Shown: one piece after another, positions 37,390 to 60,502 of the stretch
Position numbering within the stretch: the stretch's first letter is position 1
Layout: every line of letters starts with the position of its first letter
NCBI GenBank assembly: GCA_020137815.1
Contig: CM035361.1
Location: forward strand, 1,302,001-1,366,000
Origin: Hormiphora californensis
Lineage: Eukaryota > Animalia > Ctenophora
Reading direction: 5' to 3'
Length of the DNA stretch: 64,000 bases
The notes under the pieces: model-generated
Database searches by the model: none
Told to the model about the DNA's origin: nothing
Seen by the model: the letters and a program-made list of their open reading frames with translations, nothing else
Translations under genes and position numbers: made by a program

Positions 37390-40300
37390 ATGGCAAATAT
37401 TCAATGCCTGTTGATTGTTTGTTTGCTTGTCGGACAAGTGATTACTGTGCGAGATAATGACCATGATCACGACTCTGTTATCAATAAGTGGACCTACAAT
37501 CCAAGTTTTGTACGTGCATATTTATCATAGCACTGGCAAGTGCCTCGGGTCCAAAAGGGGTGTGGGCACAGTTTTGTATGTGCATCATATCTCTTTGATC
37601 ACCCAGAAACCATAAATCGCTTGTTGAGGGAACCGCATACTCAACAATAAATCACATTTGTATCGACACACAACTATAGAAAAACAGCTAATTTCACTAG
37701 GGCGGAACACCTAATATGACCGAACCTAAATTCTTAGCCTCATACTTTTTCCAATGATAAACTTACACCCCATTCTTTCAGGGTATTTTCTGTGACTTTT
37801 GCAACCTACTCTTGTCGCCGATCTGCTTTGAACAACGCTGTGATCGGTCCCACTTCTGCTATCTAACCGAAACCGCCAGTGGGTGCGGAAACCCGTACAT
37901 GCATAAAATCAGAGAATGCAGGTATGAAGGAACTTTCGAATACCTTTTATTACAACTTTTGCTATGTTTTTTATGTGCAACTAGGCACTGGATTACTCAT
38001 AAAATTGTTTTGTTGTTAGTATATTAAATTGTGATATAATTTTCAGGTCTTGGCATCAGGGAGATTGTTGTTTTGCGAGGCAGGACTTACATGGTCTTCA
38101 ATTCAACGCTAGCCAATGCAGAGTCAAGGTAAAGATCAATCACTATAATAAAGAGACACTATAGAATCACTATAGCGAAACACTATAGAGAATCACTAAT
38201 ATTCACTATAGCGGATTCCTTTTCCAAGACTTCTTGCAATGTTCCTAATTCCTTGATCATAGTCCGATCAATCTATCCTACTCTGATATCATGATTCCAC
38301 TATTTCCTAGGTGCCAGAGGTGATGTGTCACGAGTGTACTAGGATGGGTGGATGTAAACCGATATCTTGTTCAAATGGAAGTATCTGCTACGCTCATGGG
38401 TTAGTTCTGCTTCTATGTATCCTGTCGGATTGACACATCTGATATGTTGATTTGAAAAACTTTTGGAAACTCCGACATGAATCTTTTGACGGCCTGGGCC
38501 TCAGTATATATAATATATGCAATAAGGCACTATCAACCCCATGGAGAAATGATATCGTTCTATCAGAAGGCGTTTGCGTCACTTCACCCCGCAGAAACCA
38601 ACCCATAAACAGGGTGTGAACTGCATGTCGTGTTTGCTAGTCGCGAGTGCGCTTGCGAGACAAGCAAACACGTCAAGGTTCATTAACAAGCATGCTGCTC
38701 AGTCATTTTAGATTTAATACACAATGTAAGGATACCATGTAATAGGTGAGACTCTTGCCGTCACCCTCGTTCAAGTCCCGTGAAAAACGGAGCAGTACAC
38801 GCAAACTGATGCCCATTTTCCTCGCGTGACCCCGATTCAGCAGTTTGAGACACCAACTCTTTAGGGGGCCATATCTCAGTAACCAGACAAGATAGGAAAA
38901 ATCGCCGTCTAATGAGGCGTACAGTTTTTAATCTAGTTTACCACAGTACCGGCCGTTCACCACCCAGGAGAAGGAACGGGATCTTCATTGCATGCAACCA
39001 CCCCTTACTAGCTCCGCATTAGCCAGCATCCTCGTAGAAGAAGAAGAAGATATGTTGATTATTTATTTACGTTAAGGAGTCAAACTTTTTTCTTAGAGAT
39101 TAGATGTATCAAAATAAATAAGTTTATGGAATTTAAGTGGAAAAGTTTCTTAGAGATTAAGTGAGTGAAAGTGGAAAAGTTTCTTAGAGATTAGGTGGGT
39201 CAAAGTGGGAAAGTTTCTTAGAGATTAGGAGGTCAAGGTGTGAAAATTTCTTAGAGATTAGGAGGTCAAAGTGGGAAAGTTTCTTAGAGATAAGGAGGTC
39301 AAAAAATGAAAGTTTCTTAGAGATAAGGAGGTCAAAGTGGAAAAGTTTCTTAGAGATAAGAAGGTCAAAGTGTGAAAGTTTCTTAGAGATAAGGAGGTCA
39401 AAGTGGGAAAGTTTCTTAGAGATAAGGAGGTCAAAGAATGAAAGTTTCTTAGAGATAAGGAGGTCAAAGTGGGAAAGTTTCTTAGAGATAAAGAGGTCAA
39501 AGTTGAAAAGTTTCTTAGAGATAAGGAGGTCAAATTGGGAAAGTTTCTTAGAGATAAGGAGGTCAAAGTGTGAAAGTTTCTTAAAGATAAGGAGGTCAAA
39601 GTTGAAAAGTTTCTTAGAGATAAGGAGGTCAAAGTGGGAAAGTTTCTTAGAGATAAGGAGGTCAAAGAATGAAAGTCTCTTAGAGATAAGGAGGTCAAAA
39701 AATGAAAGTTTCTTAGAGATAAGGAGGTCAAAGTGGGAAAATTTCTTAGAGATAAGGAGGTCAAAAAATGAAAGTTTCTTAGAGATAAGGAGGTCAAAAA
39801 ATGAAAGTTTCTTAGAGATAAGGAGGTCGAAGTGGAAAAGTTTCTTAGAGATAAGGAGGTCAAAAAATGAAAGTTTCTTAGAGATAAGGAGGTCAAAGTG
39901 TGAAAGTTTCTTAGAGATAAGGAGGTCAAAAAATGAAAGTTTCTTAGAGATAAGGAGGTCAAAGTGTGAAAGTTTCTTAGAGATAAGGCGGTCAAAAAAT
40001 GAAAGTTTCTTAGAGATAAGGAGGTCAAAGTGGGACAGTTTCTTAGAGATAAGGAGGTCAAAGAATGAAAGTTTCTTAGAGATAAGGAGGTCAAAGTGGG
40101 AAAGTTTCTTAGAGATAAGGAGATCAAAGTGGGAAAATTTCGTAGAGATAAGGAGGTCAAAGTGGAAAAGTTTCTTAGAGATAAGGAGGTCAAAGTGGGA
40201 AAGTTTCTTAGAGATAAGGAGGTCGAAGTGGAAAAGTTTCTTAGAGATAAGGAGGTCAAAGTGGGAAAGTTTCTTAGAGATAAGGAGGTCAAAGTGGAAA

Positions 40301-43300
40301 AGTTTCTTAGAGATAAGGAGGTCAAAGTGGGAAAGTTTCTTAGAGATAAGGAGGTCAAAAATGAAAGTTTCTTAGAGATAAGGAGGTCAAATTGTGAAAG
40401 TTTCTTAGAGATAAGGAGGTCAAAGAATGAAAGTTTCTTAGAGATAAGGAGGTCAAAGTGGGAAAGTTTCTTGGAGATAAGGAGGTCGAAGTGGAAAAGT
40501 TTCTTAGAGATAAGGAGGTCAAAAAATGAAAGTTTCTTAGAGATAAGGAGGTCAAAGTGGGAAAGTTTCTTAGAGATAAAGAGGTCAAAGTTGAAAAGTT
40601 TCTTAGAGATAAGGAGGTCAAAGTGGGAAAGTTTCTTAGAGATAAGGAGGTCATCAAAGTGTGAAAGTTTCTTAGAGATAAGGAGGTCAAAGAATGAAAG
40701 TTTCTTAGAGATAAGCAGGTCAAAGTGGGAAAGTTTCTCAGAGATAAGGAGATCAAAGTGTGAAAGTTTCTTAGAGATAAGGAGGTCAAAAAATGAAAGT
40801 TTCTTAGAGATAAGGAGGTCAAAGAATGAAAGTTTCTTAGAGATAAGGAGGTCAAAGTGAGAAAGTTTCTTAGAGATAAGGCGGTCAAAAATGAAAGTTT
40901 CTTAGAGATAAGGAGGTCAAAGTGGGAAAGTTTCTTAGAGATAAGGAGGTCAAAGAATGAAAGTTTCTTAGAGATAAGGAAGTCAAAGAATGAAAGTCTC
41001 TTAGAGATAAGGAGGTCAAAGTGGGAAAGTTTCTTAGAGATAAGGAGGTCAAAGTGTGAAAGTTTCTTAGAGATAAGGAGGTCAAAGTGGAAAAGTTTCT
41101 TAGAGATAAGGAGGTCAAAGTGGAAAAGTTTCTTAGAGATAAGGAGGTCAAAGTGGAAAAGTTTCTTAGAGATAAGGAGGTCAAAGTGGAAAAGTTTCTT
41201 AGAGATAAGGAGGTCAAAAATGAAAGTTTCTTAGAGATAAGGAGGTCAAATTGTGAAAGTTTCTTAGAGATAAGGAGGTCAAAGAATGAAAGTTTCTTAG
41301 AGATAAGGAGGTCGAAGTGGAAAAGTTTCTTAGAGATAAGGAGGTCAAAAAATGAAAGTTTCTTAGAGATAAGGAGGTCAAAGTGTGAAAGTTTCTTAGA
41401 GATAAGGCGGTCAAAAAATGAAAGTTTCTTAGAGATAAGGAGGTCAAAGTGGGACAGTTTCTTAGAGATAAGGAGGTCAAAGAATGAAAGTTTCTTAGAG
41501 ATAAGGAGGTCAAAGTGGGAAAGTTTCTTAGAGATAAGGAGATCAAAGTGGGAAAATTTCGTAGAGATAAGGAGGTCAAAGTGGAAAAGTTTCTTAGAGA
41601 TAAGGAGGTCAAAGTGGGAAAGTTTCTTAGAGATAAGGAGGTCGAAGTGGAAAAGTTTCTTAGAGATAAGGAGGTCAAAGTGGGAAAGTTTCTTAGAGAT
41701 AAGGAGGTCAAAGTGGAAAAGTTTCTTAGAGATAAGGAGGTCAAAGTGGGAAAGTTTCTTAGAGATAAGGAGGTCAAAAAATGAAAGTTTCTTAGAGATA
41801 AGGAGGTCGAAGTGGAAAAGTTTCTTAGAGATAAGGAGGTCAAAAAATGAAAGTTTCTTAGAGATAAGGAGGTCAAAGTGTGAAAGTTTCTTAGAGATAA
41901 GGAGGTCAAAGTGGGAAAGTTTCTTAGAGATAAGGAGGTCAAAAAATGAAAGTTTCTTAGAGATAAGGAGGTCAAAGTGTGAAAGTTTCTTAGAGATAAG
42001 GCGGTCAAAAAATGAAAGTTTCTTAGAGATAAGGAGGTCAAAGTGGGACAGTTTCTTAGAGATAAGGAGGTCAAAGAATGAAAGTTTCTTAGAGATAAGC
42101 AGGTCAAAGTGGGAAAGTTTCTTAGAGATAAGGAGATCAAAGTGGGAAAATTTCGTAGAGATAAGGAGGTCAAAGTGGAAAAGTTTCTTAGAGATAAGGA
42201 GGTCAAAGTGGGAAAGTTTCTTAGAGATAAGGAGGTCGAAGTGGAAAAGTTTCTTAGAGATAAGGAGGTCAAAGTGGGAAAGTTTCTTAGAGATAAGGAG
42301 GTCAAAGTGGAAAAGTTTCTTAGAGATAAGGAGGTCAAAGTGGGAAAGTTTCTTAGAGATAAGGAGGTCAAAAAATGAAAGTTTCTTAGAGATAAGGAGG
42401 TCAAATTGTGAAAGTTTCTTAGAGATAAGGAGGTCAAAGAATGAAAGTTTCTTAGAGATAAGGAGGTCAAAGTGGGAAAGTTTCTTGGAGATAAGGAGGT
42501 CGAAGTGGAAAAGTTTCTTAGAGATAAGGAGGTCAAAAAATGAAAGTTTCTTAGAGATAAGGAGGTCAAAGTGGGAAAGTTTCTTAGAGATAAAGAGGTC
42601 AAAGTTGAAAAGTTTCTTAGAGATAAGGAGGTCAAAGTGGGAAAGTTTCTTAGAGATAAGGAGGTCAAAGTGTGAAAGTTTCTTAGAGATAAGGAGGTCA
42701 AAGAATGAAAGTTTCTTAGAGATAAGCAGGTCAAAGTGGGAAAGTTTCTCAGAGATAAGGAGATCAAAGTGTGAAAGTTTCTTAGAGATAAGGAGGTCAA
42801 AAAATGAAAGTTTCTTAGAGATAAGGAGGTCAAAGAATGAAAGTTTCTTAGAGATAAGGAGGTCAAAGTGAGAAAGTTTCTTAGAGATAAGGCGGTCAAA
42901 AAATGAAAGTTTCTTAGAGATAAGGAGGTCAAAGTGGGAAAGTTTCTTAGAGATAAGGAGGTCAAAGAATGAAAGTTTCTTAGAGATAAGGAAGTCAAAG
43001 AATGAAAGTCTCTTAGAGATAAGGAGGTCAAATTGTGAAAGTTTCTTAGAGATAAGGAGGTCAAAGAATGAAAGTTTCTTAGAGATAAGGAGGTCAAAGT
43101 GGGAAAGTTTCTTGGAGATAAGGAGGTCGAAGTGGAAAAGTTTCTTAGAGATAAGGAGGTCAAAAAATGAAAGTTTCTTAGAGATAAGGAGGTCAAAGTG
43201 GGAAAGTTTCTTAGAGATAAAGAGGTCAAAGTTGAAAAGTTTCTTAGAGATAAGGAGGTCAAAGTGGGAAAGTTTCTTAGAGATAAGGAGGTCAAAGTGT

Positions 43301-46300
43301 GAAAGTTTCTTAGAGATAAGGAGGTCAAAGAATGAAAGTTTCTTAGAGATAAGCAGGTCAAAGTGGGAAAGTTTCTCAGAGATAAGGAGATCAAAGTGTG
43401 AAAGTTTCTTAGAGATAAGGAGGTCAAAAAATGAAAGTTTCTTAGAGATAAGGAGGTCAAAGAATGAAAGTTTCTTAGAGATAAGGAGGTCAAAGTGAGA
43501 AAGTTTCTTAGAGATAAGGCGGTCAAAAAATGAAAGTTTCTTAGAGATAAGGAGGTCAAAGTGGGAAAGTTTCTTAGAGATAAGGAGGTCAAAGAATGAA
43601 AGTTTCTTAGAGATAAGGAAGTCAAAGAATGAAAGTCTCTTAGAGATAAGGAGGTCAAAGTGGGAAAGTTTCTTAGAGATAAGGAGGTCAAAGTGTGAAA
43701 GTTTCTTAGAGATAAGGAGGTCAAAGTGGAAAAGTTTCTTAGAGATAAGGAGGTCAAAGTGGAAAAGTTTCTTAGAGATAAGGAGGTCAAAGTGGAAAAG
43801 TTTCTTAGAGATAAGGAGGTCGAAGTGGAAAAGTTTCTTAGAGATAAGGAGGTCAAAGTGGGAAAGTTTCTTAGAGATAAGGAGGTCAAAGTGGAAAAGT
43901 TTCTTAGAGATAAGGAGGTCAAAAAATGAAAGTTTCTTAGAGATAAGGAGGTCAAAGTGGGAAAGTTTCTTAGAGATAAAGAGGTCAAAGTTGAAAAGTT
44001 TCTTAGAGATAAGGAGGTCAAAGTGGGAAAGTTTCTTAGAGATAAGGAGGTCAAAGTGTGAAAGTTTCTTAGAGATAAGGAGGTCAAAGAATGAAAGTTT
44101 CTTAGAGATAAGCAGGTCAAAGTGGGAAAGTTTCTCAGAGATAAGGAGGTCAAAGTGTGAAAGTTTCTTAGAGATAAGGAGGTCAAAAAATGAAAGTTTC
44201 TTAGAGATAAGGAGGTCAAAGAATGAAAGTTTCTTAGAGATAAGGAGGTCAAAGTGAGAAAGTTTCTTAGAGATAAGGCGGTCAAAAAATGAAAGTTTCT
44301 TAGAGATAAGGAGGTCAAAGTGGGAAAGTTTCTTAGAGATAAGGAGGTCAAAGAATGAAAGTTTCTTAGAGATAAGGAAGTCGAAGAATGAAAGTCTCTT
44401 AGAGATAAGGAGGTCAAAGTGGGAAAGTTTCTTAGAGATAAGGAGGTCAAAGTGTGAAAGTTTCTTAGAGATAAGGAGGTCAAAGTGGAAAAGTTTCTTA
44501 GAGATAAGGAGGTCAAAGTGGAAAAGTTTCTTAGAGATAAGGAGGTCAAAATTGGAAAGTTTCTTAGAGATAAGGAGGTCAAAGTGTGAAAGTTTCTTAG
44601 AGATAAGGAGGTCAAAGAATGAAAGTTTCTTAGAGATAAGCAGGTCAAAGTGGGAAAGTTTCTCAGAGATAAGGAGGTCAAAGTGTGAAAGTTTCTTAGA
44701 GATAAGGAGGTCAAAAAATGAAAGTTTCTTAGAGATAAGGAGGTCAAAGAATGAAAGTTTCTTAGAGATAAGGAGGTCAAAGTGAGAAAGTTTCTTAGAG
44801 ATAAGGCGGTCAAAAAATGAAAGTTTCTTAGAGATAAGGAGGTCAAAGTGGGAAAGTTTCTTAGAGATAAGGAGGTCAAAGAATGAAAGTTTCTTAGAGA
44901 TAAGGAAGTCGAAGAATGAAAGTCTCTTAGAGATAAGGAGGTCAAAGTGGGAAAGTTTCTTAGAGATAAGGAGGTCAAAGTGTGAAAGTTTCTTAGAGAT
45001 AAGGAGGTCAAAGTGGAAAAGTTTCTTAGAGATAAGGAGGTCAAAGTGGAAAAGTTTCTTAGAGATAAGGAGGTCAAAAATGAAAGTTTTTTAGAGATAA
45101 GGAGGTCAAAATTGGAAAGTTTCTTAGAGATAAGGAGGTCGAAGTGGAAAAGTTTCTTAGAGATAAGGAGGTCAAAGTGGGAAAGTTTCTTAGAGATAAG
45201 GAGGTCAAAGTGGAAAAGTTTCTTAGAGATAAGGAGGTCAAAGTGGGAAAGTTTCTCAGAGATAAGGAGGTCAAAAATGAAAGTTTCTTAGAGATAAGGA
45301 GGTCAAATTGTGAAAGTTTCTTAGAGATAAGGAGGTCAAAGAATGAAAGTTTCTTAGAGATAAGGAGGTCAAAGTGGGAAAGTTTCTTGGAGATAAGGAG
45401 GTCGAAGTGGAAAAGTTTCTTAGAGATAAGGAGGTCAAAAAATGAAAGTTTCTTAGAGATAAGGAGGTCAAAGTGGGAAAGTTTCTTAGAGATAAAGAGG
45501 TCAAAGTTGAAAAGTTTCTCAGAGATAAGGAGGTCAAAGTGGGAAAGTTTCTTAGAGATAAGGCGGTCAAAAAATGAAAGTTTCTTAGAGATAAGGAGGT
45601 CAAAGTGGGAAAGTTTCTTAGAGATAAGGAGGTCAAAGAATGAAAGTTTCTTAGAGATAAGGAAGTCAAAGAATGAAAGTCTCTTAGAGATAAGGAGGTC
45701 AAAGTGGGAAAGTTTCTTAGAGATAAGGAGGTCAAAGTGTGAAAGTTTCTTAGAGATAAGGAGGTCAAAGTGGAAAAGTTTCTTAGAGATAAGGAGGTCA
45801 AAGTGGAAAAGTTTCTTAGAGATAAGGAGGTCAAAGTGGAAAAGTTTCTTAGAGATAAGGAGGTCAAAAAATGAAAGTTTCTTAGAGATAAGGAGGTCAA
45901 ATTGTGAAAGTTTCTTAGAGATAAGGAGGTCAAAGAATGAAAGTTTCTTAGAGATAAGGAGGTCGAAGTGGAAAAGTTTCTTAGAGATAAGGAGGTCAAA
46001 AAATGAAAGTTTCTTAGAGATAAGGAGGTCAAAGTGTGAAAGTTTCTTAGAGATAAGGCGGTCAAAAAATGAAAGTTTCTTAGAGATAAGGAGGTCAAAG
46101 TGGGACAGTTTCTTAGAGATAAGGAGGTCAAAGAATGAAAGTTTCTTAGAGATAAGGAGGTCAAAGTGGGAAAGTTTCTTAGAGATAAGGAGATCAAAGT
46201 GGGAAAATTTCGTAGAGATAAGGAGGTCAAAGTGGAAAAGTTTCTTAGAGATAAGGAGGTCAAAGTGGGAAAGTTTCTTAGAGATAAGGAGGTCGAAGTG

Positions 46301-49300
46301 GAAAAGTTTGTTAGAGATAAGGAGGTCAAAGTGGGAAAGTTTCTTAGAGATAAGGAGGTCAAAGTGGAAAAGTTTCTTAGAGATAAGGAGGTCAAAGTGG
46401 GAAAGTTTCTTAGAGATAAGGAGGTCAAAAAATGAAAGTTTCTTAGAGATAAGGAGGTCAAATTGTGAAAGTTTCTTAGAGATAAGGAGGTCAAAGAATG
46501 AAAGTTTCTTAGAGATAAGGAGGTCAAAGTGGGAAAGTTTCTTGGAGATAAGGAGGTCGAAGTGGAAAAGTTTCTTAGAGATAAGGAGGTCAAAAAATGA
46601 AAGTTTCTTAGAGATAAGGAGGTAAAAGTGGGAAAGTTTCTTAGAGATAAAGAGGTCAAAGTTGAAAAGTTTCTTAGAGATAAGGAGGTCAAAGTGGGAA
46701 AGTTTCTTAGAGATAAGGAGGTCAAAGTGTGAAAGTTTCTTAGAGATAAGGAGGTCAAAGAATGAAAGTTTCTTAGAGATAAGCAGGTCAAAGTGGGAAA
46801 GTTTCTCAGAGATAAGGAGGTCAAAGTGTGAAAGTTTCTTAGAGATAAGGAGGTCAAAAAATGAAAGTTTCTTAGAGATAAGGAGGTCAAAGAATGAAAG
46901 TTTCTTAGAGATAAGGAGGTCAAAGTGAGAAAGTTTCTTAGAGATAAGGCGGTCAAAAAATGAAAGTTTCTTAGAGATAAGGAGGTCAAAGTGGGAAAGT
47001 TTCTTAGAGATAAGGAGGTCAAAGAATGAAAGTTTCTTAGAGATAAGGAAGTCAAAGAATGAAAGTCTCTTAGAGATAAGGAGGTCAAAGTGGGAAAGTT
47101 TCTTAGAGATAAGGAGGTCAAAGTGTGAAAGTTTCTTAGAGATAAGGAGGTCAAAGTGGAAAAGTTTCTTAGAGATAAGGAGGTCAAAGTGGAAAAGTTT
47201 CTTAGAGATAAGGAGGTCAAAAATGAAAGTTTTTTAGAGATAAGGAGGTCAAAATTGGAAAGTTTCTTAGAGATAAGGAGGTCGAAGTGGAAAAGTTTCT
47301 TAGAGATAAGGAGGTCAAAGTGGGAAAGTTTCTTAGAGATAAGGAGGTCAAAGTGGAAAAGTTTCTTAGAGATAAGGAGGTCAAAGTGGGAAAGTTTCTT
47401 AGAGATAAGGAGGTCAAAAAATGAAAGTTTCTTAGAGATAAGGAGGTCAAATTGTGAAAGTTTCTTAGAGATAAGGAGGTCAAAGAATGAAAGTTTCTTA
47501 GAGATAAGGAGGTCAAAGTGGGAAAGTTTCTTGGAGATAAGGAGGTCGAAGTGGAAAAGTTTCTTAGAGATAAGGAGGTCAAAAAATGAAAGTTTCTTAG
47601 AGATAAGGAGGTCAAAGTGGGAAAGTTTCTTAGAGATAAAGAGGTCAAAGTTGAAAAGTTTCTCAGAGATAAGGAGGTCAAAGTGGGAAAGTTTCTTAGA
47701 GATAAGGAGGTCAAAGTGTGAAAGTTTCTTAGAGATAAGGAGGTCAAAGAATGAAAGTTTCTTAGAGATAAGTAGGTCAAAGTGGGAAAGTTTCTCAGAG
47801 ATAAGGAGGTCAAAGTGTGAAAGTTTCTTAGAGATAAGGAGGTCAAAAAATGAAAGTTTCTTAGAGATAAGGAGGTCAAAGAATGAAAGTTTCTTAGAGA
47901 TAAGGAGGTCAAAGTGAGAAAGTTTCTTAGAGATAAGGCGGTCAAAAAATGAAAGTTTCTTAGAGATAAGGAGGTCAAAGTGGGAAAGTTTCTTAGAGAT
48001 AAGGAGGTCAAAGAATGAAAGTTTCTTAGAGATAAGGAAGTCAAAGAATGAAAGTCTCTTAGAGATAAGGAGGTCAAAGTGGGAAAGTTTCTTAGAGATA
48101 AGGAGGTCAAAGTGTGAAAGTTTCTTAGAGATAAGGAGGTCAAAGTGGAAAAGTTTCTTAGAGATAAGGAGGTCAAAGTGGAAAAGTTTCTTAGAGATAA
48201 GGAGGTCAAAAATGAAAGTTTTTTAGAGATAAGGAGGTCAAAATTGGATAGTTTCTTAGAGATAAGGAGGTCAAAAAATGAAAGTTTCTTAGAGATAAGG
48301 AGGTCAAAGTGTGAACGTTTCTTAGAGATAAGGAGGTCAAAGAATGAAAGTTTCTTAGAGATAAGGAGGTCAAAGAATGAAAGTTTCTTAGAGATAAGCA
48401 GGTCAAAGTGGGAAAGTTTCTTAGAGATAAGGAGGTTAAAGAATGAAAGTTTCTTAGAGATTAGGAGGTCAAAGTGTGACAGTTTCTTAGAGATTAGGAG
48501 GTCAATGTGTGAAAATTTCTTAGAGATTAGCGTTGGTCAAAGTGGGAAAGTTTCTTAGAGATGAGGTGGGTCAAAATGTACGAATGTTTCTTAGAGATTA
48601 GGAGGTCAAAGTGGGGAACGCGAGCTTTATTGCACCTACATCTTATTGGGTTATTTATTTATGTTAAGGAGGCAAACTTAACACTTCCGCCGCTAATCCA
48701 ATTCTATAACTTCAGGGGTCAGAGTGGGTGTGCGGATGTTGATACAATATCGGAGTGTCATGACCGAGGTTATGAGAGGTGTTGCCTTGGTGATACCTCA
48801 ACTAGAGCATGGAACGCTTCACATGTGAGTAACATTCATCTTCGTTCATGTCATCTGAATCTGATTGTATGGTACTCCTTTGATTGTGTCAACTACAAAC
48901 ACTTTTCTTTTACTTTACAAAAACGTTTCTCTCGATTATATGGTGGATATCTTGGTATCGAAGACACCTCACACTCTGTTTAGGTCGCCGGGCGACCTTC
49001 GCGTGCGCTGGCAAGCTAAGGGGTAACTTCGTAACCAAGTGGATATCATCATTGACAGTTATATTCCCTCTCCAGTGTCAGGTGGAGCGAGCCCCCATCT
49101 GTGAGGTTTGTGGGCCACAAGTGGTAAAAAGAGACAAGTCCCTCAGTGGGTGTACAAGAGTGTCCTGTCCTGGAACGTGCTTTATTAATGAGAAGCAGCA
49201 CAAGAAGGGGGATGATGGTAAGTTACTTGACAGAATGATCAATTGGCGAATTCTACTAAGTCAATAAGTTCTGTAAATAATAGTGTGTACTGATGAAAAG

Positions 49301-50237: not shown

Positions 50238-53200
50238 CTACAATTCAGCAATGGATCTTGATAGAGTTGTTGACCCATTTGACACCAAACTCTTCTCTTG
50301 ATCCTGCAGAAACCTAACTGATCCAGCTGATCCAGGCACCTTCAACTCATGGGGATATGAGACAGTATCCTGATCTTTCTCTGAAGTATCTTTCTCTGAT
50401 GTTGGGTTGAGGATCGTTCTGGAGACACTGGAGACTTCGTCCAGCGGGAACACTTGGGTGTTGGTGAGGCGGGAACTGAAGGGTGTCGTACTCTCGTGTC
50501 GTAGGTAGGACTGAAATGAAATAGAGGGTTATATTAGGTGCAGATATGGAGTAGTTCAGATGAGGGGGTTATTAGGTGCCGATGGAGTAGTTCAGATGGG
50601 GTTAATGGTTATAGATACACATGGGCGAGTACATGGCACGTGCACGTAACTGATTCATCGACACGACGGCACGTGCCGATGGAAGAGTTACACATCTTCT
50701 AGGTTCGTATGTCTGTCGGCGCTCACCTGATCTAGTGCAATGGTTTGATAGTCAAAACGGAGTCTGATGGCACCAGCCGGTCGTTTAGATCTTTTTAAAT
50801 CCATAAATTTAATTTATTGTTTAATCATGTGACCACGTAAAAAGATGGTTACAATAATATCGTTTTATCTTCACTTTGAATCATATATCTAGCTTTAGAA
50901 ATACTAATGACTCATCATCCCAGTCTACTAGCCACCAACCCAATTGCCTGGCCAATCACACAGGGTTCTAGGTATTACCAGAATATCACACAAGGCATAA
51001 AAGCTGTCAGAGAGCATTATATTGGCCTGATAGCATAAAAGCAATAGCAAACCCGTCCACAACTATAACTATCTTGTCGATGAATTAGTTCATTGAACTA
51101 GTTCGCCCAAAAGCCATTATAGTACAGCTATCTCAGATCTATACAATGTACACTAATCGTATTCAGGTGAAAACCATTAGTTTCGAGCAGTAAAAACATT
51201 GCCCCGCCTGCACCCGGAACCGGCCAATTAGGGTTTCACATGTCAACTAGCAGGCTTCACACTTCACCAAAACTACCAATAACTTATAACACTGCACCAG
51301 TGCATTGATGTGTTTTTTTGCTTGCAGTTGTAACACCTTCTGTCCTTTTATATTTTTTCTAAACATTATGCCGGAAGCAAATTAATATACATATTGGCAT
51401 GGGAACTAATAGAATTTGAAGTAATAGAATTTGAACTGTCGACGTTTAAACGTCGACAGTTCAAGTTCTATTTGTTCATTTTCTATTTACTTTTGATGTT
51501 TTAGCCTACCTGACGTTCCTCTAGCCTTAGTCGGGTATGTGTATTTCTACAGCAGAAAATGTCGTAGAATGTTCGCCTGACTTGTTGATGCAGAAAACCA
51601 TAGATAACTGGATTCACACAACTGCAGAGATTAACAGTTGTTAGATTTAATAGAAAATTAATCAAATGCAATGGAAAAGTGGTTAAATTTAATCAAAGAT
51701 GTTTTAGAAGTTGTCATTGACAACTGTTGTCATAGTTATTTCTTATTTCTTGTTTTTACTATACCTGTTCATAATGGCAATGACAAAAGTACTGATAACA
51801 AGTCCCCGAAAGAAGATTGCCTCGCAATACGTGTCCAGGAAGTTCATTAAAATTCCAACAACTGAAAAATAATATCATTAGAAATGCACATTAGAATTCA
51901 CTATTGATATCTCAAATACATATTCCTTTCCTGGTGAAAGCTGTGACATTTTAACAGGAATTGCTAAGAAAGTATGAAAATTTGTTTGAGCTAATAATGA
52001 ATTATGTATTGTCTTTGCAGCATGCAGCATATGGGAATTACATGTGTCAGATGACTATGTGTAGAATAGTGGTAGTATAATTATAGGGGTAGATGACAAA
52101 TGCTTAATATTGTAGGAAACAGTCGTGACTGAACGTCAGATTCAGGCACGACTGTTGTCCCATATGCATATTCATTTTTGTCCTAATTGTTTGCGGTTCA
52201 TTACTGTTTCATTTTCTTTGACAGTTGTAAAACTGATTTTCTAAACCTAGAACAGCTGTTCTTTTTGTTTCCATATGTTGAAACTTTTCAATGAGTCGCA
52301 AGGCTACGAAGATTGTCGAATCGTTCCTTGCATTATACAGATGCTTTTTAGTGTGTATGCCTTTTTAAAATCTCAAGCCGAGCTGTCGTGATCCCGTTCC
52401 CAATGCCATTTAGATAATAGCAATGTCATTATCATTATACTAATAGTCTTAAAAGCCTTGCCTAATTGAGATTTTCTTGGAAACCCAAGTTTCTATATGG
52501 TATGCAAATTGGTAAATTGAATATTATAAATTGCGGGACATATGGATCAAACACGTGCAGCTCGAGTGTTTGACGTTTGACAGAATATACTGGTGCTTTT
52601 TTCACTTTTGTTGGAATTTTTCCTTGCACCTGTTTCTCATGCCTTGATCAGTTACCTTGAAATATCTCTCTATCAGGATGTATTCAACTCTCTCCATCCT
52701 CCTCTTCCTTCTTCCCTGTGAGGCGAGGATTGGGTTCATAACCTCCCTCACCCACTACCCCACCTACCAACCCATAGTGGATCTGGTTAACTCTCCTGAT
52801 ATTATCTGGATGCAGCATGATACTACCCTGTCCAACAAGACCAATGTGGCATGTGAGATGCTGGCTGAAGGTAGGGGTTTCATATCCTTGGAATCTTGGA
52901 TCGATGGTCCTGTGGTCCGCTTTACTAAATTCTCACTCATGAGCAATCCGCACTCTGCAGAGTCTTTATAACCACTCCATGTGACTCCACGTGACTCCAT
53001 ATGACTCCACGTGACTCCATATGACTCCACGTGACTCCATATGACTCCATATTTTCAGGTGTAAACGTTGTCGTTCACCAAGGCTCATCAGACGACACGG
53101 ATATATTCTCGAGCCTATTTGGGACGGAGCACAATATACCTGTAATCTCAGTAGCCGGTACCTGCTCACAACTTCACGATTCTGTCAATGAGTTGGTTAC

Positions 53201-56200
53201 CATGTCACCCAGTGACAAATATCAGGTATGTGTTACCATGGTTACCATGTCACCCAGTGACAAATATCAGGTAATGTTCTGCAGAATTCTGCAGATACTG
53301 GAGCTTATAAGGTGACCAGGCCAAAATCAGAGACTTAGGTATTGATCAGTGAGTTCATCTACTAACTGCATTGAATGTCTTCTTTATCTCCATTACTCTA
53401 GGCCCAAGCAGTACTGGATATTCTTCACTATTACAAATGGAACGAAGTCAGTGTGCTGATATCCAACGATAAATATGGAGTTAGCTTCATCCTCGACCTC
53501 CAGGAATCTTTAATAAAGCAAGACAAAACTTTGCATCAGACCCACTTGAAACAGGTTTGTGTATTTGCTTGTTTGTTTATAAGTATATTGACTTTAATAC
53601 AGTGCATCATACCGAATTCTCCAAACAGATCCTGGTTTACAACACGTTTACTGAAGAGGCTGAAGTTTCAACACAGTTGATGGCTCTCAAAACCTCCCTC
53701 GCAAGGGTTATCCTATATTTTGGGTCCTCCACCCACGCCCGAACTATTCTCCGCAAGGCAAACAACATGGGCCTCATGGGGAAGAGTTTGTATGGATCCT
53801 ATCCGATGCCATCGTTGGTAACGCCTACAGTCTCTCTCCACAACGGGACTTACATGTCATACTACGAGGGATTGCTTGGCATTCAGCCGCGTTTAGACCG
53901 GAACTGGAGATACCAAAAATTCCGGGATGGATTCGCGGTAAAGTTCTCTGGAACACCCCTTACAGAGTTTATGATGATGAGTTATGATACTCTCTCCCTC
54001 GCAACTTCCTCTCTTACCGGACTCTCTGGGCTGCCCGAACAAGACCTAGACTGCACTAAAACGGAACGTTGGACAGGAGGAGATGCTATAATGAATATTC
54101 TGAAGAGAACAGTACATATTGGAGTGACAGGAGAGTACAGTTTCACTGATCAGGGGACAGTCAAGGAACCCGCTTACGACATCGTGAATTTTGTCGGGAA
54201 AGAGTTTATCCCAGTGGGACATTGGGACGAAAAGAACAATCTGAAGATGAATGCACCAGTTAGATTCTTCAAATCCACCTTCACGGCACCTAATGGTGAG
54301 GCCAATACCCTAAATGGCGTCCACCTCCGATTCAGCATGATTCCCGGGGCCATGCCATACACCAGTGTACCCCGTGATGGGTGTAAGGACTTTACCTCCC
54401 CAAAATGTTACACAGGGCTGAGTGTTGAGTTGGTAGAGATGTTAGCTGCTCGACTAAAGTTCACCTACCACTTTGTGGTACCAGAAGATGGGATGTATGG
54501 GAGCAAGAACGCAGAGGGGGAGTGGAATGGGATGATTCTAGATATCATTAAAAACAGAACGGATATGATCATCACAGCTATCTCCTCCAATACCATCAGG
54601 AAAGAAGCGATTGAGTTCTCATACCCACTACTAGAAGGAGGTCTGGCAGCATTTGTCAGGAGTAACCGAGAAGAACGAGACCACTTCTTCTTCCTCAGAC
54701 CCTTCGATACCTCTGTCTGGATCGGTATCCTGATAGCATGTGTAGTTGTTGGAACTGTTCATTTACTTTCTTAGTGCTCTCTCACCCTATGGTGTCACCG
54801 GAGCTAAAGAGGTTCGCCAGGAACAAGTGTAGCTGTGAGCCATGTAGAGCTAATCCAGTAGACCCCAAACCGGCCTGTATGGTAGCTGCAATGGATAAAA
54901 AGAAGCCTCGGCTAAACTTCATGCACTCCCTTTGGCTCATCTCCGCAGCCCTGGTCGGTATCCCTGGACCTTGTGCACCAACATCAGTAGGTGGACGAGT
55001 CGTCCTATTCACCTGGCGATTCTTTATCCTGATCCTGGTTAAGATCTACGTGGCTAACATGTCAGCCTTCCTAACCCTCAGTTACCAGAGATCTGATATC
55101 ACCACACCAACTGACCTACTGAAACAGGACAAGTACAGGTGGGGCATCCTGGGTAGTGGGGTGACTGATATCCTTCTACAGTCTAGTTTCGACCCTGATA
55201 TGAATACCATAGGAACTGAAGCTGAGAAGCTGACGAGTTATGGTGAAGGGGTGAGGAAGATGAATGATGGATATTTTGTTTTTATCGGAGAGTTTGTGGA
55301 GTTGGAGTACCTCACATTGGAGGAGTGTAACATAATGAAAGTGGGAGATGTCTTCCAGTCTTTTGATCTCGCCTGGGGTCTACCCAAGGATTGCCCTTAT
55401 AAGGGCCTGGTGGATCAATTCCTGCTGGATGTCAGGGAGAATGGAGTGTTCGGGGAACTACTAGGCAAGTATTACAACCAAAAGACAGGTGACAGCAAGT
55501 GTAAGGGAGGCAGCGCACTAACAATGAGCATGGGAACTCTAGGAGGACTGTTCTTCACGATCCCTATTGGTATTTGTGTGGCATTAGCTTGTGTGTTTAT
55601 TGAGTATTTCTATGTAGGTGTGAGGGATTCGGGGAAAGAGGTGGGGTGCTGTGGAGTGGTGGGGGAGAGGTTGAAGTTGCAGTTAGTTGGGAGGAGGAAG
55701 GGAGAGTTTATCGAGGACAAGGACACCGATGTGTGATTTGTTTTTCATGCGTTTTAATTTTGTTATAAGATTTTGGAATTATTTTTTTAGCTTATAGTTT
55801 TTGTCGATTACACCCGGACCATCTAGCTTCTTGGATTTCACTATTACTGAAGCTGACGGACAGCAATGATAAGATACAAACAAGCCAAGCTTGGATTGAT
55901 TAACAATTATTTAGTTAAAGGGTCAGTGCACAGGGCCAACTTGGGTTAAGTGTTGAGTCTCCTTGGGTGTGGGGACCCCTGGGTGTGGTTTAGATTTTGG
56001 ACTGCCTGACTAGTTTGGGCGGAACGTGACGTAACAAAGCGCTAATTTACCTGATACAGGCGTCCAGCAGATGGTATAGGAGATAATGATCACGAACCAA
56101 ATAAAACTCTTTTTATAGCACTGGTACTTTTCAGAAGTCTTAGTTAAAATTCCTGCCAGTGATTCGTGGGCTGTCAACCTTCGGCCTGTGGGAAGACAAT

Positions 56201-59200
56201 AATATCAATCTTGGAGCTTGGTATTTATAATTTGATAGTACCATAATTACATAATGGGCATGGGACCTGTCATAAATTATAACAATCTCACTGAATGTAT
56301 GCCTGTTATATTTACCTAGGGCTCCTCGAATTTGAGGGTCCTCCTTCTTCGGAGTGTTGAAGTTTTTCCGAAATACATTGTCACTTTGCTTACTCTTGAA
56401 TGATACCACCATTATCATATGATAGCAGTAGCCTGAAGAGAGAGATAAGAGAGAGAGAAAGCACTTAGTTTTGAGGAATTCTGGAACACATGAAAGCATC
56501 ATTGTAATCACACCATGATCAAAAAGATCTCGATTTGATATAGTTACCGATGATAGGAGTAGGTAGGAGTGTCAAGAGGACCTTTTTACAGATACTGAAT
56601 GCTATGAATCCCGGGTGCTGGTACCCCATATGGTGGAATGAGGGTGAGAGACAACCAAAGGCGTTGTGATAGTACACAAAGGGAAACCACCCAAGCACCT
56701 GAAACAAAGATCAAGTTTAATTCATCAAAACTTGAGTAGTAGGTGGTTGCCTGTCAGGCCAATGCAGCTCTGACCACAGTTCTCACGCGCACAGTTTCGC
56801 GTGCTTCGAATAGGGTCAGGCCAATGCTCTGACAGGTGATTGTCCGGTAAGAACTTAAGGGTACGCTAACCAAAAATTTTTTTCGAGTGCAGGGAAATCT
56901 CTCACCGCAGGGTTGTAGGCCATGCCAAGGAGACCTTAAATATGCAATTTTGGCCCTCAAGTCGAATTCATATTTTTGCTACAGCCGTTTTAAAATCGTC
57001 TTGAAAATTTCTGAAAAGACGTTTTTGACACCCTAAAAATACTTTTTCAGGGCTAGAAGCTTAAAATTATGGGGATTTGAAGGGGATAGGAAGGTTTATC
57101 GACACAAAAATTTTTATTAAAATCGGTGATGATTTTCGGTCGTGAGATTGATTTACTTTTTTCCCTCTTAAAGGCCCTATTTAGCAAAGTTCCGAAAGTT
57201 TGTGAAGGCTGTAAATTGGTGAAAAGTTGCGTCTAACGATTATCTAAGTGGCCACAAATTTTTGGCGTGTCCTTATTTGAGACAAGTTGTACAGAGCTTT
57301 TTTTGTGAAAGCCGTTTTTTTAGAAATAAGGAAATAGCCTGTATCTCAAAAACGACTGATTTTAGAGACCTGAGACCAAGCTTAAACGATTCAGAAGGTC
57401 CGATTTTGGGGGGGTCTTCTGAGAGACATTTTTCTCCTACTTCAACGGTTTTCGCTGTAATTGCGAAAAAGGATTTAGCAAGAAGGTGGAAAAGCAGCAC
57501 GAAGCAGGCTGTCGGAACTCCTCTTTTGCCCTCTTCAAAGGATTTGTTTTTCGCAATTACAGCGAAAACCGTTGAAGTAGGAGAAAAATGTCTCTCAGAA
57601 GACCCCCCCAAAATCGGACCTTCTGAATCGTTTAAGCTTGGTCTCAGGTCTCTAAAATCAGTCGTTTTTGAGATACAGGCTATTTCCTTATTTCTAAAAA
57701 AACGGCTTTCACAAAAAAAGCTCTGTACAACTTGTCTCAAATAAGGACACGCCAAAAATTTGTGGCCACTTAGATAATCGTTAGACGCAACTTTTCACCA
57801 ATTTACAGCCTTCACAAACTTTCGGAACTTTGCTAAATAGGGCCTTTAAGAGGGAAAAAAGTAAATCAATCTCACGACCGAAAATCATCACCGATTTTAA
57901 TAAAAATTTTTGTGTCGATAAACCTTTCTATCCCCTTCAAATCCCCATAATTTTAAGCTTCTAGCCCTGAAAAAGTATTTTTAGGGTGTCAAAAACGTCT
58001 TTTCAGAAATTTTCAAGACGATTTTAAAACGGCTGTAGCAAAAATATGAATTCGACTTGAGGGCTAAAATTGCATATTTAAGGTCTCCTTGGCATGGCCT
58101 ACAACCCTGCGGTGAGAGATTTCCCTGCACTCGAAAAAAATTTTTGGTTAGCGTACCCTTAATTCACATGATCGAGTGGTACCTGTGGTAGTTCCACAAG
58201 GGGTGAGATAATCCAAATAATAGCCGTTACTGTCAGGATTCTCCGCTGTGTTATCCACCGATTATATGTTAGCGGATGAATAACCTGAGAAAGTATTATG
58301 AGTATTTTTTAAGTTTTAAGTTTTAACAAAGCTCGAAGATTTGTTAGCTACAGTCGGACCCCGATTTAGTGGCATCCTCGGGGGGAAAAATCCTACCACT
58401 AAATCGGGGTGCCACTAAATCGGGGTCAAATAATGTTAATTTCCTATATCGGGGGAAAAAATCCTGCCACTAAACCGGGTTGCCACTAAATCGGGGTCCG
58501 ACTGTATAAAATATTTTGTAAGTCTTACCGCAACATATCGTTCCACGGCCATACAACAAAGGGTCCAAGTTGAAATCTTACTTGACGTGTATATCAATAA
58601 ACCTGTATCGATAATTTTTGGAAATTGTTAAAGAACTCAGAAAACTAGGAATGAGTAATATACCGTATGACGTTCACCTTAATATTACTAGAATGGGAGG
58701 GGGCATGTGTTTTTCTGCTGTTATACTATAAAAGGGCAGGTCTTGACAAATATCGTCATACGACAAATTGGGCAGACAAAGCGGTGTGGGAATCATTGTG
58801 ATTTATTGTGAAATTATACAGAGGTTTATTAAAACAGCTTATGTAATGCAAAGATTCAACAATTCTTCTTGGGTAATTTCTACCCCTAGTACTGAATAAT
58901 GAAGTCCCTATATTAAAATGTGAAGTGACAGAACCTGTATAGACTCTGCAGTACAGAACACATGTTCAACAAGCTATAAATTACCGTTTAGTGTGCAGAG
59001 AACGCTGCCCAATCTGACTGATTGGTCAGCAGGAAGACACTGCGCTGTGTAGTTGTACACTCCAGCCCCTCCTGTCCCATCTGAAACTCCTGTACCGTTT
59101 CTAGTAGTGAGAGAAGTCAGTTGATATTAACATGGATGATAATAGGGGAAAACAATATTCTCCCCACCCATATCACCACCCAATTATTGGTAGACTACTT

Positions 59201-59709
59201 GAATTCCAGTATAGAACAAATCCTTGTGTTTTGAAAATGTACTCACATATTTAGTGCGGCATATCCGCTGATTGGCATGGCTATTCCGGCAATTAGAATA
59301 TCACTCGCCGCCAGACTTATCGTCAGGAAATTGCTTGAGTTTTTTAACCTGCACAGAGAATAATCAATTAGTAGAAGTTTTATGAAGTTTTAAAAAAGGA
59401 AGAGACGGATAAACTAGGAGGGGGTGATAAGTAGATATGTCTTAGCGGGTAATTAGAACTAATATCAGTTCAGACATCTCAAGGCATGATATACTGTATT
59501 TGCTGACATCTACACTGCACTATAATCCAACATTTAAACCATGTTTTTCAAAAGTTAGCTAAACAATGCACGACTTACTTTCTATTTTTCCTCAATGCTA
59601 TGATAAGAGAGAGGTTACCGACTGTACCCACTATTGATACGAGGTAAAGAATGATACCAATCAGGATCTGGGCCCCTGCGGAGTAGCCTGAATCTGTGAC
59701 AGGATCCAT
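50238..59709 (-). CDS. Class A (rhodopsin-like) GPCR, 11 exons, 469 aa, non-opsin
   Basis: Minus-strand exons: 59709-59579 (TM1 VGTVGN), 59348-59247 (TM2 SLAASD), 59100-58985, 58602-58529 (TM3 MAVERY), 58284-58183 (TM4 IIWII), 56698-56548, 56432-56316 (TM5 end, GYCY), 56185-56051 (TM6 CWTP), 51861-51765, 51621-51510 (TM7 NSCVNPVIY, helix 8, CC), 50510-50238 (Ser/Thr-rich tail). All phases are consistent; 1410 nt. Confidence 0.92.
52678..55736 (+). CDS. Ionotropic glutamate receptor subunit, ctenophore/Epsilon type, nested in GPCR intron 8
   Basis: Exons 52678-52870 (signal peptide), 53059-53225, 53402-53554, 53629-55736. ATD; S1 (GEWNGMI..RKEAIEFSYP); pre-M1 FLRPFDTSVW; M3 IYVANMSAFLT; S2 LLKQDKYRWGILGS..QSFDLAWGLPKDCPYK; M4 GGLFF. 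Apparent single-base indels near 53780, 53835, 54757 and 54806. Confidence 0.93.
52975..53050. repeat. 10-bp tandem repeat (RTGACTCCAY), ~8 copies, in iGluR intron 1
   Basis: gtgactccac/atgactccat units run up to the splice acceptor at 53057-53058. Confidence 0.9.
56859..58158. mobile_element. 1.3-kb foldback element with ~610-bp TIR arms and TTAA TSD (Kolobok-like)
   Basis: ttaa|gggtacgctaacc..ggttagcgtaccc|ttaa. The arms are almost perfect inverted copies with a ~75-bp loop at ~57470-57545. Mirror ORFs 57262+/57273- arise from the symmetry. Confidence 0.9.
58351..58504. mobile_element. 154-bp Tc1/mariner-pogo-type MITE in GPCR intron 4
   Basis: TA|cagtcggaccccgatttagtggca..tgccactaaatcggggtccgactg|TA. 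Confidence 0.85.
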
Positions 59710-60502
59710 GATAGCTACAATATATATCCTTTGTTATGTTCTAACCCTCCCTTTATAAATGTTTCGGGGGCGGGGTGCCCTAAACACAGTCTAGCTAGGC
59801 AAATTATATATCCTACTGAGTGATATCAAACACTCAAACAGGTGAATATAGCATGCACAACAAAGAGAGAAATATTAGAAAACTCTTAGAAATATATCGA
59901 CATTTAGAATTTATATGGGCATTGCAGTATTACGAATATTAGCATTTAGCAGAATACAATAGATATGCAGCTATTCGGCAAAAATAATTCGGGGAACAAA
60001 AAATTTCCTTTTTTCAGGAACCCCATTCTTGAGTAGAAATGCCATGCAAAAATCGCATGGAAACAGACAACGCGGTACCATATGAAAGAACTAGAAGCTG
60101 AAAGGAGAAAGGTGAATTGCAGGGCTAAAAACGATGAATATAAATGAGCTAAAAGCTAAAAGCTAAAAGTTACGGTGTTTAATTCTCGTCTTTTTTCAAA
60201 CCCACGGGGCTCGGAGAGAGATAGAGGGTAGAGCAAGACAAGGTGTTTCCTGTGCACTATGAATAAATGGGAAACCAAAATGGAAAACATTTTGGGAAAA
60301 CCATGGTGGCTTCCTATGCCAAATATAAATATCTTGCCGTTCTAATACGGCTAAAGTGACGTTAACAAGCCCTGGTTCAGATACAATACCAGTACACATC
60401 ATATATTCACGTAATGTGTGTGTGTGTGTGTGTGACCTAGCGTAAAAAGGCAGGCAGAATAAAGGGATGGTGAGATAAATTGAGATAAACGTGAGGACAA
60501 AG

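What the first reader, a model, noticed from the sequence alone, without database searches (positions are those of the whole stretch)
51862..56050. A whole ionotropic glutamate receptor gene nested antisense inside a GPCR intron
Seen: the iGluR (52678-55736, +) lies entirely in the 4.2-kb intron that splits the end of TM6 of a minus-strand class A GPCR. The upstream exon 56185-56051 carries CWTP; downstream exons 51861-51765 and 51621-51510 carry ECL3/TM7. The other GPCR introns are ~0.1-1.5 kb. Known: nested intronic genes are reported to be common in cydippid ctenophores, so nesting alone is not new. Inference: an ionotropic and a metabotropic receptor sharing one locus could be co-regulated or mutually exclusive through transcriptional interference, which bears on ctenophore neural signalling.
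Basis: partly seen in the sequence, partly recalled or inferred. Interest (0 to 1): 0.82.

Follow-up and report, generated by a model that had tools for sequence, protein, structure and literature searches.

The report
Comb-jelly glutamate channel inside GPCR intron
A known comb-jelly glutamate-receptor channel gene sits on the opposite strand inside one intron of an unrelated orphan G-protein-coupled receptor gene, most likely an ordinary case of the gene nesting that is common in these animals rather than a designed signalling switch.

Summary
The nesting is real. An 11-exon class A GPCR (minus strand, 469 aa, all GT-AG, no stops) has a 4,189-nt eighth intron inside TM6. A four-exon iGluR (52678-55736, +) lies within it. 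Bolinopsis and Mnemiopsis orthologs of the GPCR run unbroken across the junction, and 7 of 7 scored variants in exons 10-11 are silent, so this is one gene. The iGluR shows four frameshifts in the window that short-read contigs of both haplotypes lack: they are assembly errors. Read through, it is 872 aa and 95% identical to Pleurobrachia bachei iGluR-1, an Epsilon subunit without the glycine lock, probably glutamate-type. The window adds 112 N-terminal residues missing from the deposited protein. The host is an orphan class A receptor, not an mGluR, opsin or aminergic receptor. In the related Hormiphora, 2,357 of 14,265 genes are nested, so a channel inside some 7TM gene is expected by chance (P about 0.5-0.6). 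The splice across the intron, the transcript ends, co-expression and synteny could not be tested. Verdict: a new example of a known arrangement; the co-regulation idea is unsupported.

The parts
59579..59709 (-). GPCR exon 1 (ATG, TM1)
   Evidence: tblastn to Bolinopsis ortholog 61%
59247..59348 (-). GPCR exon 2 (TM2)
   Evidence: weak 7tm_1 hit E 0.022
58985..59100 (-). GPCR exon 3 (ECL1, C3.25)
58529..58602 (-). GPCR exon 4 (TM3, K3.37, ERY)
58183..58284 (-). GPCR exon 5 (ICL2, TM4)
56855..58162 (.). High-copy foldback element filling GPCR intron 5 (616-nt arms, about 100% complementary, 76-nt spacer)
   Evidence: contig depth 10^4-10^5
56548..56698 (-). GPCR exon 6 (ECL2, TM5 with K5.42/K5.43)
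   Evidence: (83% to Bolinopsis)
56316..56432 (-). GPCR exon 7 (end TM5, ICL3)
56051..56185 (-). GPCR exon 8 (TM6 through CWTP); its donor opens the host intron
51862..56050 (-). GPCR intron 8, 4,189 nt, GT-AG, phase 1; hosts the iGluR
   Evidence: splice inferred from ortholog continuity, not seen in RNA
55913..56022 (.). Short dispersed repeat 3' of the iGluR (borders approximate)
   Evidence: raised depth and loose ends
53629..55736 (+). iGluR exon 4 (end of ATD, S1, M1-M3, S2, M4, stop); four single-base assembly indels
53402..53554 (+). iGluR exon 3 (ATD)
   Evidence: ANF_receptor E 6e-8; matches AEX15539.1
53059..53225 (+). iGluR exon 2 (ATD; only its last 8 codons are in the deposited protein)
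52678..52870 (+). iGluR exon 1 (ATG, hydrophobic signal-peptide-like start); absent from AEX15539.1; ATG preceded by a pyrimidine-rich acceptor-like AG
   Evidence: aligns to paralog iGluR-11 from residue 17
52046..52386 (.). Bin holding a short dispersed repeat 5' of the iGluR (bin limits, not element ends)
   Evidence: depth 137 against about 30 (X1) and 368 against 50-85 (X4)
51765..51861 (-). GPCR exon 9 (end TM6, ECL3, most of TM7)
   Evidence: 64% and 73% to the two lobate orthologs
51510..51621 (-). GPCR exon 10 (NPVIY, helix 8)
   Evidence: 3 of 3 scored variants silent
50239..50510 (-). GPCR exon 11 (C-terminal tail; stop follows)
   Evidence: 4 of 4 scored variants silent

Best explanation
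An intact Epsilon-type iGluR gene (iGluR-1 of Pleurobrachia or a very close relative) lies antisense inside intron 8 of an orphan class A GPCR, where it likely landed as a duplicate copy and is likely tolerated as an independently transcribed passenger with no dedicated functional link to its host. Shown: both gene structures, the intact reading frame in short-read contigs, mostly silent variation in both genes, and continuity of lobate GPCR orthologs across the junction. Inferred: (1) the GPCR pre-mRNA splices out the 4.2-kb intron; the opposite strand keeps the iGluR's splice sites invisible to it; (2) the iGluR has its own start, perhaps with a trans-spliced leader added at the AG before its ATG; (3) it entered by DNA-level duplication, since it keeps three introns and groups with two other P. 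bachei paralogs; (4) any polymerase interference pushes the two genes towards different cells or times, as for nested genes in general; (5) the channel is probably gated by glutamate or another acidic amino acid, not glycine-locked.
For: Gene models. The spliced model aligns to Bolinopsis XP_063691552.1 at 55.6% over 478 columns and to Mnemiopsis KAL5272491.1 at 59.1% over 308, without a gap at the exon 8/9 junction. Frameshifts are absent from both haplotype contigs in 3 of 3 runs of sample S1, and AEX15539.1 reads through them. Silent variants: iGluR 40 of 42, GPCR exons 10-11 7 of 7, against 23% expected. Base rate in Hormiphora: 2,357 nested genes in 1,654 hosts, 14,265 genes, TE-flanked on at least one side in 1,109 (PMC8527503 passages). 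With 14 iGluRs and 697 7TM genes (PMC4685580 table), about 2.3 nested iGluRs are expected; P(at least one iGluR in a 7TM host) is 0.08-0.11 and P(any of 127 listed channels) is 0.53-0.64. Tree of 46 sequences: iGluR-1 groups with two P. bachei paralogs, support 1.0. Nested genes typically arise by insertion of young duplicates into introns and diverge in expression (PMC5174743 abstract).
Against: No RNA evidence of the splice or of expression in the same or different cells was obtained. The chance estimate borrows Hormiphora's nesting rate, assumes all genes are equally likely hosts, and gives only about 0.1 for this exact class pair. The lineage-specific origin rests on 50%-identity cluster representatives, which can hide lobate orthologs. 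The host intron is almost wholly iGluR (3,059 of 4,189 nt), and the two iGluR alleles differ by about 8% (26 of 319 nt), which would fit long persistence of the arrangement. In mammals nested pairs show no extra expression divergence (PMC8467205 abstract), so step 4 is not universal. The old P. bachei gene model of this GPCR stops at the junction.
Confidence: 0.68

Rival explanations
1. The nesting is kept by selection as a regulatory unit: shared enhancers or polymerase collision make cells express the channel or the GPCR in a set pattern, as in a cholinergic-type locus.
For: Both are membrane receptors and both appear to be under purifying selection. The GPCR keeps basic residues at 3.37, 5.42 and 5.43 in 3 of 3 ctenophore sequences, which would suit an anionic ligand, and the iGluR has G653/T655. 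Co-expression of host/nested pairs in single cells occurs in mammals (abstract 10.1101/2023.05.02.539096).
Against: No shared pathway is shown; the host is not an mGluR. None of the 4 named Bolinopsis iGluRs found among 18 clusters looked up belongs to the iGluR-1 clade. The one on a contig of the same length as the GPCR ortholog's is 30.5% identical and 847 accession numbers away; this survey is partial. Drosophila nested pairs are less correlated in expression and function than neighbouring genes (PMC3814207 abstract).
Confidence: 0.12
2. Only the coding region is nested: the iGluR's primary transcript starts upstream of GPCR exon 9 (an outron removed by trans-splicing) or ends within exon 8, giving true sense-antisense overlap with host exons. 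This can hold together with the best explanation.
For: An acceptor-like pyrimidine tract and AG directly precede the iGluR ATG. At least 56% of Hormiphora Iso-Seq reads carry a spliced leader (PMC8527503 section 37). None of 9 polyA-like hexamers tested lies on the + strand in 55737-56050; the first AATAAA is at 56100, inside exon 8.
Against: That AATAAA is the reverse complement of codons in a conserved TM6 motif and may be incidental. Ctenophore polyA signals were not established here. The 816 nt upstream leave room for a promoter.
Confidence: 0.2
3. The GPCR is usually not spliced across the intron; it ends after exon 8 as a six-helix fragment, or exons 9-11 belong to another gene.
For: P. 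bachei gene model P0002 (362 aa) ends three residues after exon 8. AATAAA or ATTAAA hexamers lie on the host strand within the intron at 55758, 55601, 53598 and 53514.
Against: Exons 9-10 continue the same orthologs colinearly, phases match, 7 of 7 variants are silent, and no other copy of exons 1-8 or 9-11 is in the window (tblastn). P0002 has other mis-predicted stretches.
Confidence: 0.05
4. The iGluR was placed in the intron by misassembly at the short repeats on either side.
For: Repeats flank the iGluR on both sides, and no listed short-read contig spans from the iGluR to exon 8 or exon 9. The window has base-level errors.
Against: Two misjoins would be needed inside one intron. Cover is continuous in 30 of 30 bins for X1 and X4, and depth over the iGluR is like that over the GPCR exons. 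Contigs bridge the iGluR start (52531-52755) and stop (55586-55995) into flanking DNA. None of the 15 listed joints (of 85) cleanly skips the iGluR; the one that spans it (52144-59731, X5 only, 25-nt side) links two repeat copies.
Confidence: 0.05

Closest known systems
Nested intronic genes of Hormiphora californensis (PMC8527503; passages and section 37 read)
   Same: A protein-coding gene within a single intron of another, in a closely related cydippid; short repeats on the flanks.
   Different: That paper gives counts and names no iGluR-in-GPCR case in the passages read. Its supplementary list was not examined, so this locus or its ortholog may already be catalogued there.
Pleurobrachia bachei iGluR-1 (AEX15539.1; GluE1_Pba in PMC6307864, equated by name and 760-aa length)
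   Same: 95.1% identical over 760 aa; next paralogs 44-45%.
   Different: The window supplies 112 further N-terminal residues with a signal-peptide-like start; the deposited protein is listed without a signal peptide. No genomic context was attached to it in what I read.
Glycine-locked ctenophore iGluRs ML032222a and PbiGluR3 (PDB 4YKI, 4ZDM; 4ZDM named PbiGluR3 from recall)
   Same: Same Epsilon branch; best PDB match 4ZDM, E 1.4e-74; loop-1 cysteines and Cys-rich M1-M2 loop.
   Different: Lacks the Arg653/Glu423 salt bridge; has Gly653 and Thr655.
Lobate orthologs of the host: Bolinopsis XP_063691552.1 ('melatonin receptor type 1A-like') and Mnemiopsis ACHWQZ_G000630
   Same: 56-59% identity, with the same TM5, TM6 and TM7 motifs and basic pocket positions.
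   Different: Whether they host an iGluR could not be seen. The melatonin name is a source label: PDB hits to CCK, melatonin and adenosine receptors score alike (E 4e-19 to 2e-18).
Cholinergic gene locus, VAChT inside ChAT intron 1 (PMC3053374 passages)
   Same: One neuronal signalling gene nested in an intron of another.
   Different: That locus joins two steps of one pathway and is conserved in nematodes, flies and mammals. Here neither a shared pathway nor conservation is shown.

Membership tests
Nested intronic gene | Coding exons all within one intron of a host gene | tested here: met
Nested intronic gene | Host mRNA is spliced across that intron | tested here: inconclusive
   GT-AG, phase match, ortholog continuity and silent variants; no RNA junction seen
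Nested intronic gene | Whole transcript, ends included, inside the intron | not testable with these tools
   needs Iso-Seq or CAGE;
Epsilon iGluR, ctenophore branch | ATD, S1, M1-M3, S2, M4 with R485 and acidic 705 | tested here: met
   Pfam ANF_receptor, Lig_chan-Glu_bd, Lig_chan; motifs
Epsilon iGluR, ctenophore branch | Cys-rich M1-M2 loop and loop-1 cysteine pair | tested here: met
   features as defined in PMC6307864 passages
Epsilon iGluR, ctenophore branch | Groups with ctenophore iGluRs in a tree | tested here: met
   (FastTree, 46 sequences of at least 380 aa, most unnamed); GluE1_Pba listed in supplement
Epsilon iGluR, ctenophore branch | Ligand-gated cation current | not testable with these tools
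   needs expression and electrophysiology
Glycine-locked ctenophore iGluR | Arg653 with Glu423 salt bridge | tested here: not met
   Gly at 653, no acidic residue at the 423 position
Glutamate-selective signature | G/S/T653 with T655 | tested here: met
   rule
Glutamate-selective signature | Tyr732 | tested here: not met
   Leu aligns to the GluK2 Tyr; rule from PMC12226733
Class A (rhodopsin-like) GPCR | 7tm_1 domain with C3.25, E/DRY, CWxP, NPxxY | tested here: met
   7tm_1 E 1.5e-24 for P0002; motifs; hydropathy scan called 6 of 7 helices, missing TM3
Metabotropic glutamate receptor (class C) | Venus flytrap N-terminal domain and class C 7TM (recalled definition) | tested here: not met
   about 14-residue N-terminus, class A hits only
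Opsin | Lys at 7.43 (recalled definition) | tested here: not met
   Ile in 3 of 3
Aminergic receptor | Asp at 3.32 (recalled definition) | tested here: not met
   Ile in 3 of 3
Melatonin receptor | NRY and NAxxY variants (recalled definition) | tested here: not met
   ERY/ERF and NPxIY
Functional nested locus of the cholinergic type | Nesting conserved across distant lineages | tested here: inconclusive
   only accession numbers and contig lengths were available
Functional nested locus of the cholinergic type | Shared pathway and coupled expression | not testable with these tools
   GPCR ligand unknown; no cell-level data

The most novel reading that the evidence does not exclude
The host is a ctenophore class A receptor for an acidic amino acid (its pocket keeps Lys/Arg3.37, Lys5.42 and Lys5.43 from cydippids to lobates). 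Nesting it around a glutamate-type iGluR on the opposite strand makes one locus that switches a cell between a fast ionotropic and a slow G-protein response to the same transmitter.
Probability: 0.03. Interest if true: 0.85.

Novelty: new member of a known kind. Interest (0 to 1): 0.27.

Why it matters
At face value it is a useful annotation. It gives the full-length gene for a named ctenophore iGluR whose deposited protein lacks its first 112 residues, which anyone expressing it would need. It completes a GPCR whose public P. bachei model is cut off at this intron, and it warns that the window's frameshifts are errors. If conserved nesting and coupled expression were shown, it would be a rare case of genome layout tying two receptor types together in the earliest-branching nervous system; nothing here shows that.

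Tried and rejected
1) iGluR pseudogene: suggested by four frameshifts and, by corrected alleles at only about half depth. Rejected, where two contigs per site, both corrected, appear in X1, X2 and X3; their depths sum to the total at three sites (X1: 24.1+15.4=39.5; 15.5+11.1=26.6 twice), and to 39.5 of 69.7 at 53777/53780. 2) RNA test of the junction: no RNA holder listed; X7, guessed to be RNA, laid only 19 short repeat pieces. No evidence either way. 3) No whole genome is held, so no genome-wide count of nested genes or paralogs. 4) Synteny by accession numbers: inconclusive; no named Mnemiopsis iGluR turned up. 5) AlphaFold2 of the Mnemiopsis ortholog with a 3-sequence alignment failed (pLDDT 31); no fold search was run, and pocket positions rest on motif counting. 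6) ESM Atlas gave only generic 7tm_1 clusters. 7) Pfam on 108 of 158 ORFs of at least 60 aa elsewhere in the window (those of 68 aa or more) gave 5 weak hits, all below curated cut-offs, so neighbours and double nesting are unresolved. 8) Search for the leader's 3'-end motif plus GT: 6 hits at up to 1 mismatch, none resembling the leader. 9) Earlier scan findings: none. 10) Literature: 0 papers for ctenophore + nested + glutamate receptor + host gene; 1 for ctenophore + nested intronic genes; 1 unrelated paper. The 2014 Pleurobrachia genome paper, with its in situ data and exon maps, is not held; Alberstein 2015 was seen only as cited by others.
Full report
Observation. Walking outwards gives 11 coding exons on the minus strand (59709 to 50239). 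All ten introns are GT-AG, and the joined frame is 469 aa without a stop. Intron 8 is 4,189 nt; the other nine are 115-1,484 nt, and the largest of those is filled by a 1.3-kb foldback element. On the plus strand inside intron 8 lies a four-exon iGluR with three GT-AG introns and Pfam ANF_receptor, Lig_chan-Glu_bd and Lig_chan domains.

Is the host one gene? A search with the public P. bachei model found two other proteins among 2,321 candidates: Bolinopsis XP_063691552.1 and Mnemiopsis ACHWQZ_G000630. The window's spliced model aligns to them at 55.6% (478 columns) and 59.1% (308 columns), with no gap at the exon 8/9 junction; exon 9 alone matches at 64% and 73%. All 7 displayed variants that fall in exons 10-11 are silent. 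Against this, the P. bachei model sb/3465973 ends just after exon 8, but it is wrong in two other places as well. The splice itself was not observed.

Is the iGluR intact? As written, the window has four single-base frameshifts in exon 4. In three runs of one sample (X1-X3), two contigs cover each site and both carry the correcting indel; a second sample (X5, X6) agrees wherever it is listed. That first sample may be the window's source, and contigs drop rare variants, but the deposited protein AEX15539.1 also reads through. Read through, the gene gives 872 aa without an internal stop, 95.1% identical to AEX15539.1 over 760 aa and 44-45% to the next paralogs. Of the 80 variant rows displayed (out of 443 and 334), the 42 distinct ones in iGluR coding exons are 40 silent and 2 replacement, against 23% silent expected. 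Rows in introns, flanks and repeats were dropped, and variants on one contig are not independent. The organism is P. bachei or a very close relative; Hormiphora californensis falls within Pleurobrachia (PMC8527503 passage), and I did not settle the species.

What the two proteins are. The iGluR matches GluE1_Pba of the Epsilon subfamily by name and length (PMC6307864 passages and supplements 1-2). That record has no signal peptide; window exons 1-2 add 112 residues that begin with a hydrophobic stretch and align to paralog iGluR-11. It has the Cys-rich M1-M2 loop, the loop-1 cysteines, R485 and E705. It lacks the Arg653/Glu423 glycine lock and has G653/T655, but Leu rather than Tyr at 732 (rules). 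Glutamate is the best guess, held loosely: a Euplokamis Epsilon receptor is aspartate-selective, and close paralogs can differ in agonist (PMC13648236 passages). The GPCR is class A, with Ile at 3.32 and 7.43, so it is neither aminergic nor an opsin by the recalled criteria. PDB hits do not favour any family. It keeps Lys/Arg3.37, Lys5.42 and Lys5.43 in three species; these positions face the pocket in solved class A receptors (own knowledge), which hints at an anionic ligand. The structure prediction failed.

How it most likely works. The host pre-mRNA is inferred to lose the 4.2-kb intron in one step, the iGluR's signals being on the other strand. The iGluR probably has its own start and may receive a spliced leader at the AG before its ATG (leaders on at least 56% of Hormiphora reads). 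It keeps three introns, so a simple retrocopy is unlikely. It groups with two other P. bachei paralogs at support 1.0 in a 46-sequence tree (proteins under 380 aa and most of the 150 hits left out), and short repeats flank it. This fits insertion of a duplicate into an existing intron, the usual route to nesting (PMC5174743 abstract). Direction and date are not shown, and lobate orthologs could be hidden in 50% clusters.

Is the pairing special? Hormiphora has 2,357 nested genes among 14,265. With 14 iGluRs and 697 7TM genes in P. bachei, about 2.3 iGluRs should be nested. The chance of at least one in a 7TM host is about 0.08-0.11, and of any of 127 listed channel genes 0.53-0.64 (crude, equal host probability assumed; the 19,500-gene alternative is from recall). 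Drosophila nested pairs are less correlated than neighbouring genes and diverge in expression; mammalian ones show no extra divergence, and some are co-expressed in single cells. All four are abstracts only. Either expression pattern would therefore need a matched background to mean anything. Synteny could not be read. Of 18 iGluR clusters looked up, 4 held a named Bolinopsis protein, none in the iGluR-1 clade; one lies on a contig of the same length as the GPCR ortholog's but 847 accession numbers away.

Novelty and verdict. Searches and the scan index found no report of this pair. The 2014 genome paper was not available, and the Hormiphora supplementary list of nested genes was not examined; either may bear on priority. 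The arrangement is a new example of a well-known kind. The functional reading remains possible but has no support here. Interest 0.27; most novel reading 3% likely.

Noticed in passing
window 56855-58162: Near-perfect 1.3-kb palindrome (616-nt arms) in GPCR intron 5, at very high copy depth in three DNA runs; a foldback or MITE-like element.
   Followed up: partly
window 58349-58506: 158-nt element in GPCR intron 4 with 29-nt terminal inverted repeats starting TA-CAG, very high copy; MITE-like.
   Followed up: partly
window about 39000-48600: About 9.5-kb tandem array of a short unit with strong GC skew (0.6), giving long repetitive ORFs on both strands; probably satellite DNA.
   Followed up: no
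iGluR M3, within 53629-55736: The gating motif reads IYVANMSAF in place of SYTANLAAF; Val replaces a Thr kept in 13 of the 14 other sequences that show this stretch (Gly in one). It may alter gating.
   Followed up: no
window 53194-53273: Exact 35-nt duplication of the end of iGluR exon 2 with its donor, 45 nt apart; a possible alternative donor or local duplication.
   Followed up: no
window 52876-53045: One haplotype in X1, X3 and X6 replaces about 168 nt of iGluR intron 1, which holds a 10-nt tandem repeat.
   Followed up: no
PMC6307864 supplement 2: Mnemiopsis iGluR gene ids come in near-neighbour pairs (ML150010a/ML150012a, ML085016a/ML085018a, ML032221a/ML032222a); the intervening ids would be worth checking for host genes.
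   Followed up: no
P0007 (AEX15549.1, iGluR-11): The deposited paralog lacks the M2-M3 region in the alignment; a mis-spliced clone or a channel-less isoform.
   Followed up: no
window 51408-51487: 80-nt hairpin (40-nt arms, 88%) just inside GPCR intron 10.
   Followed up: no
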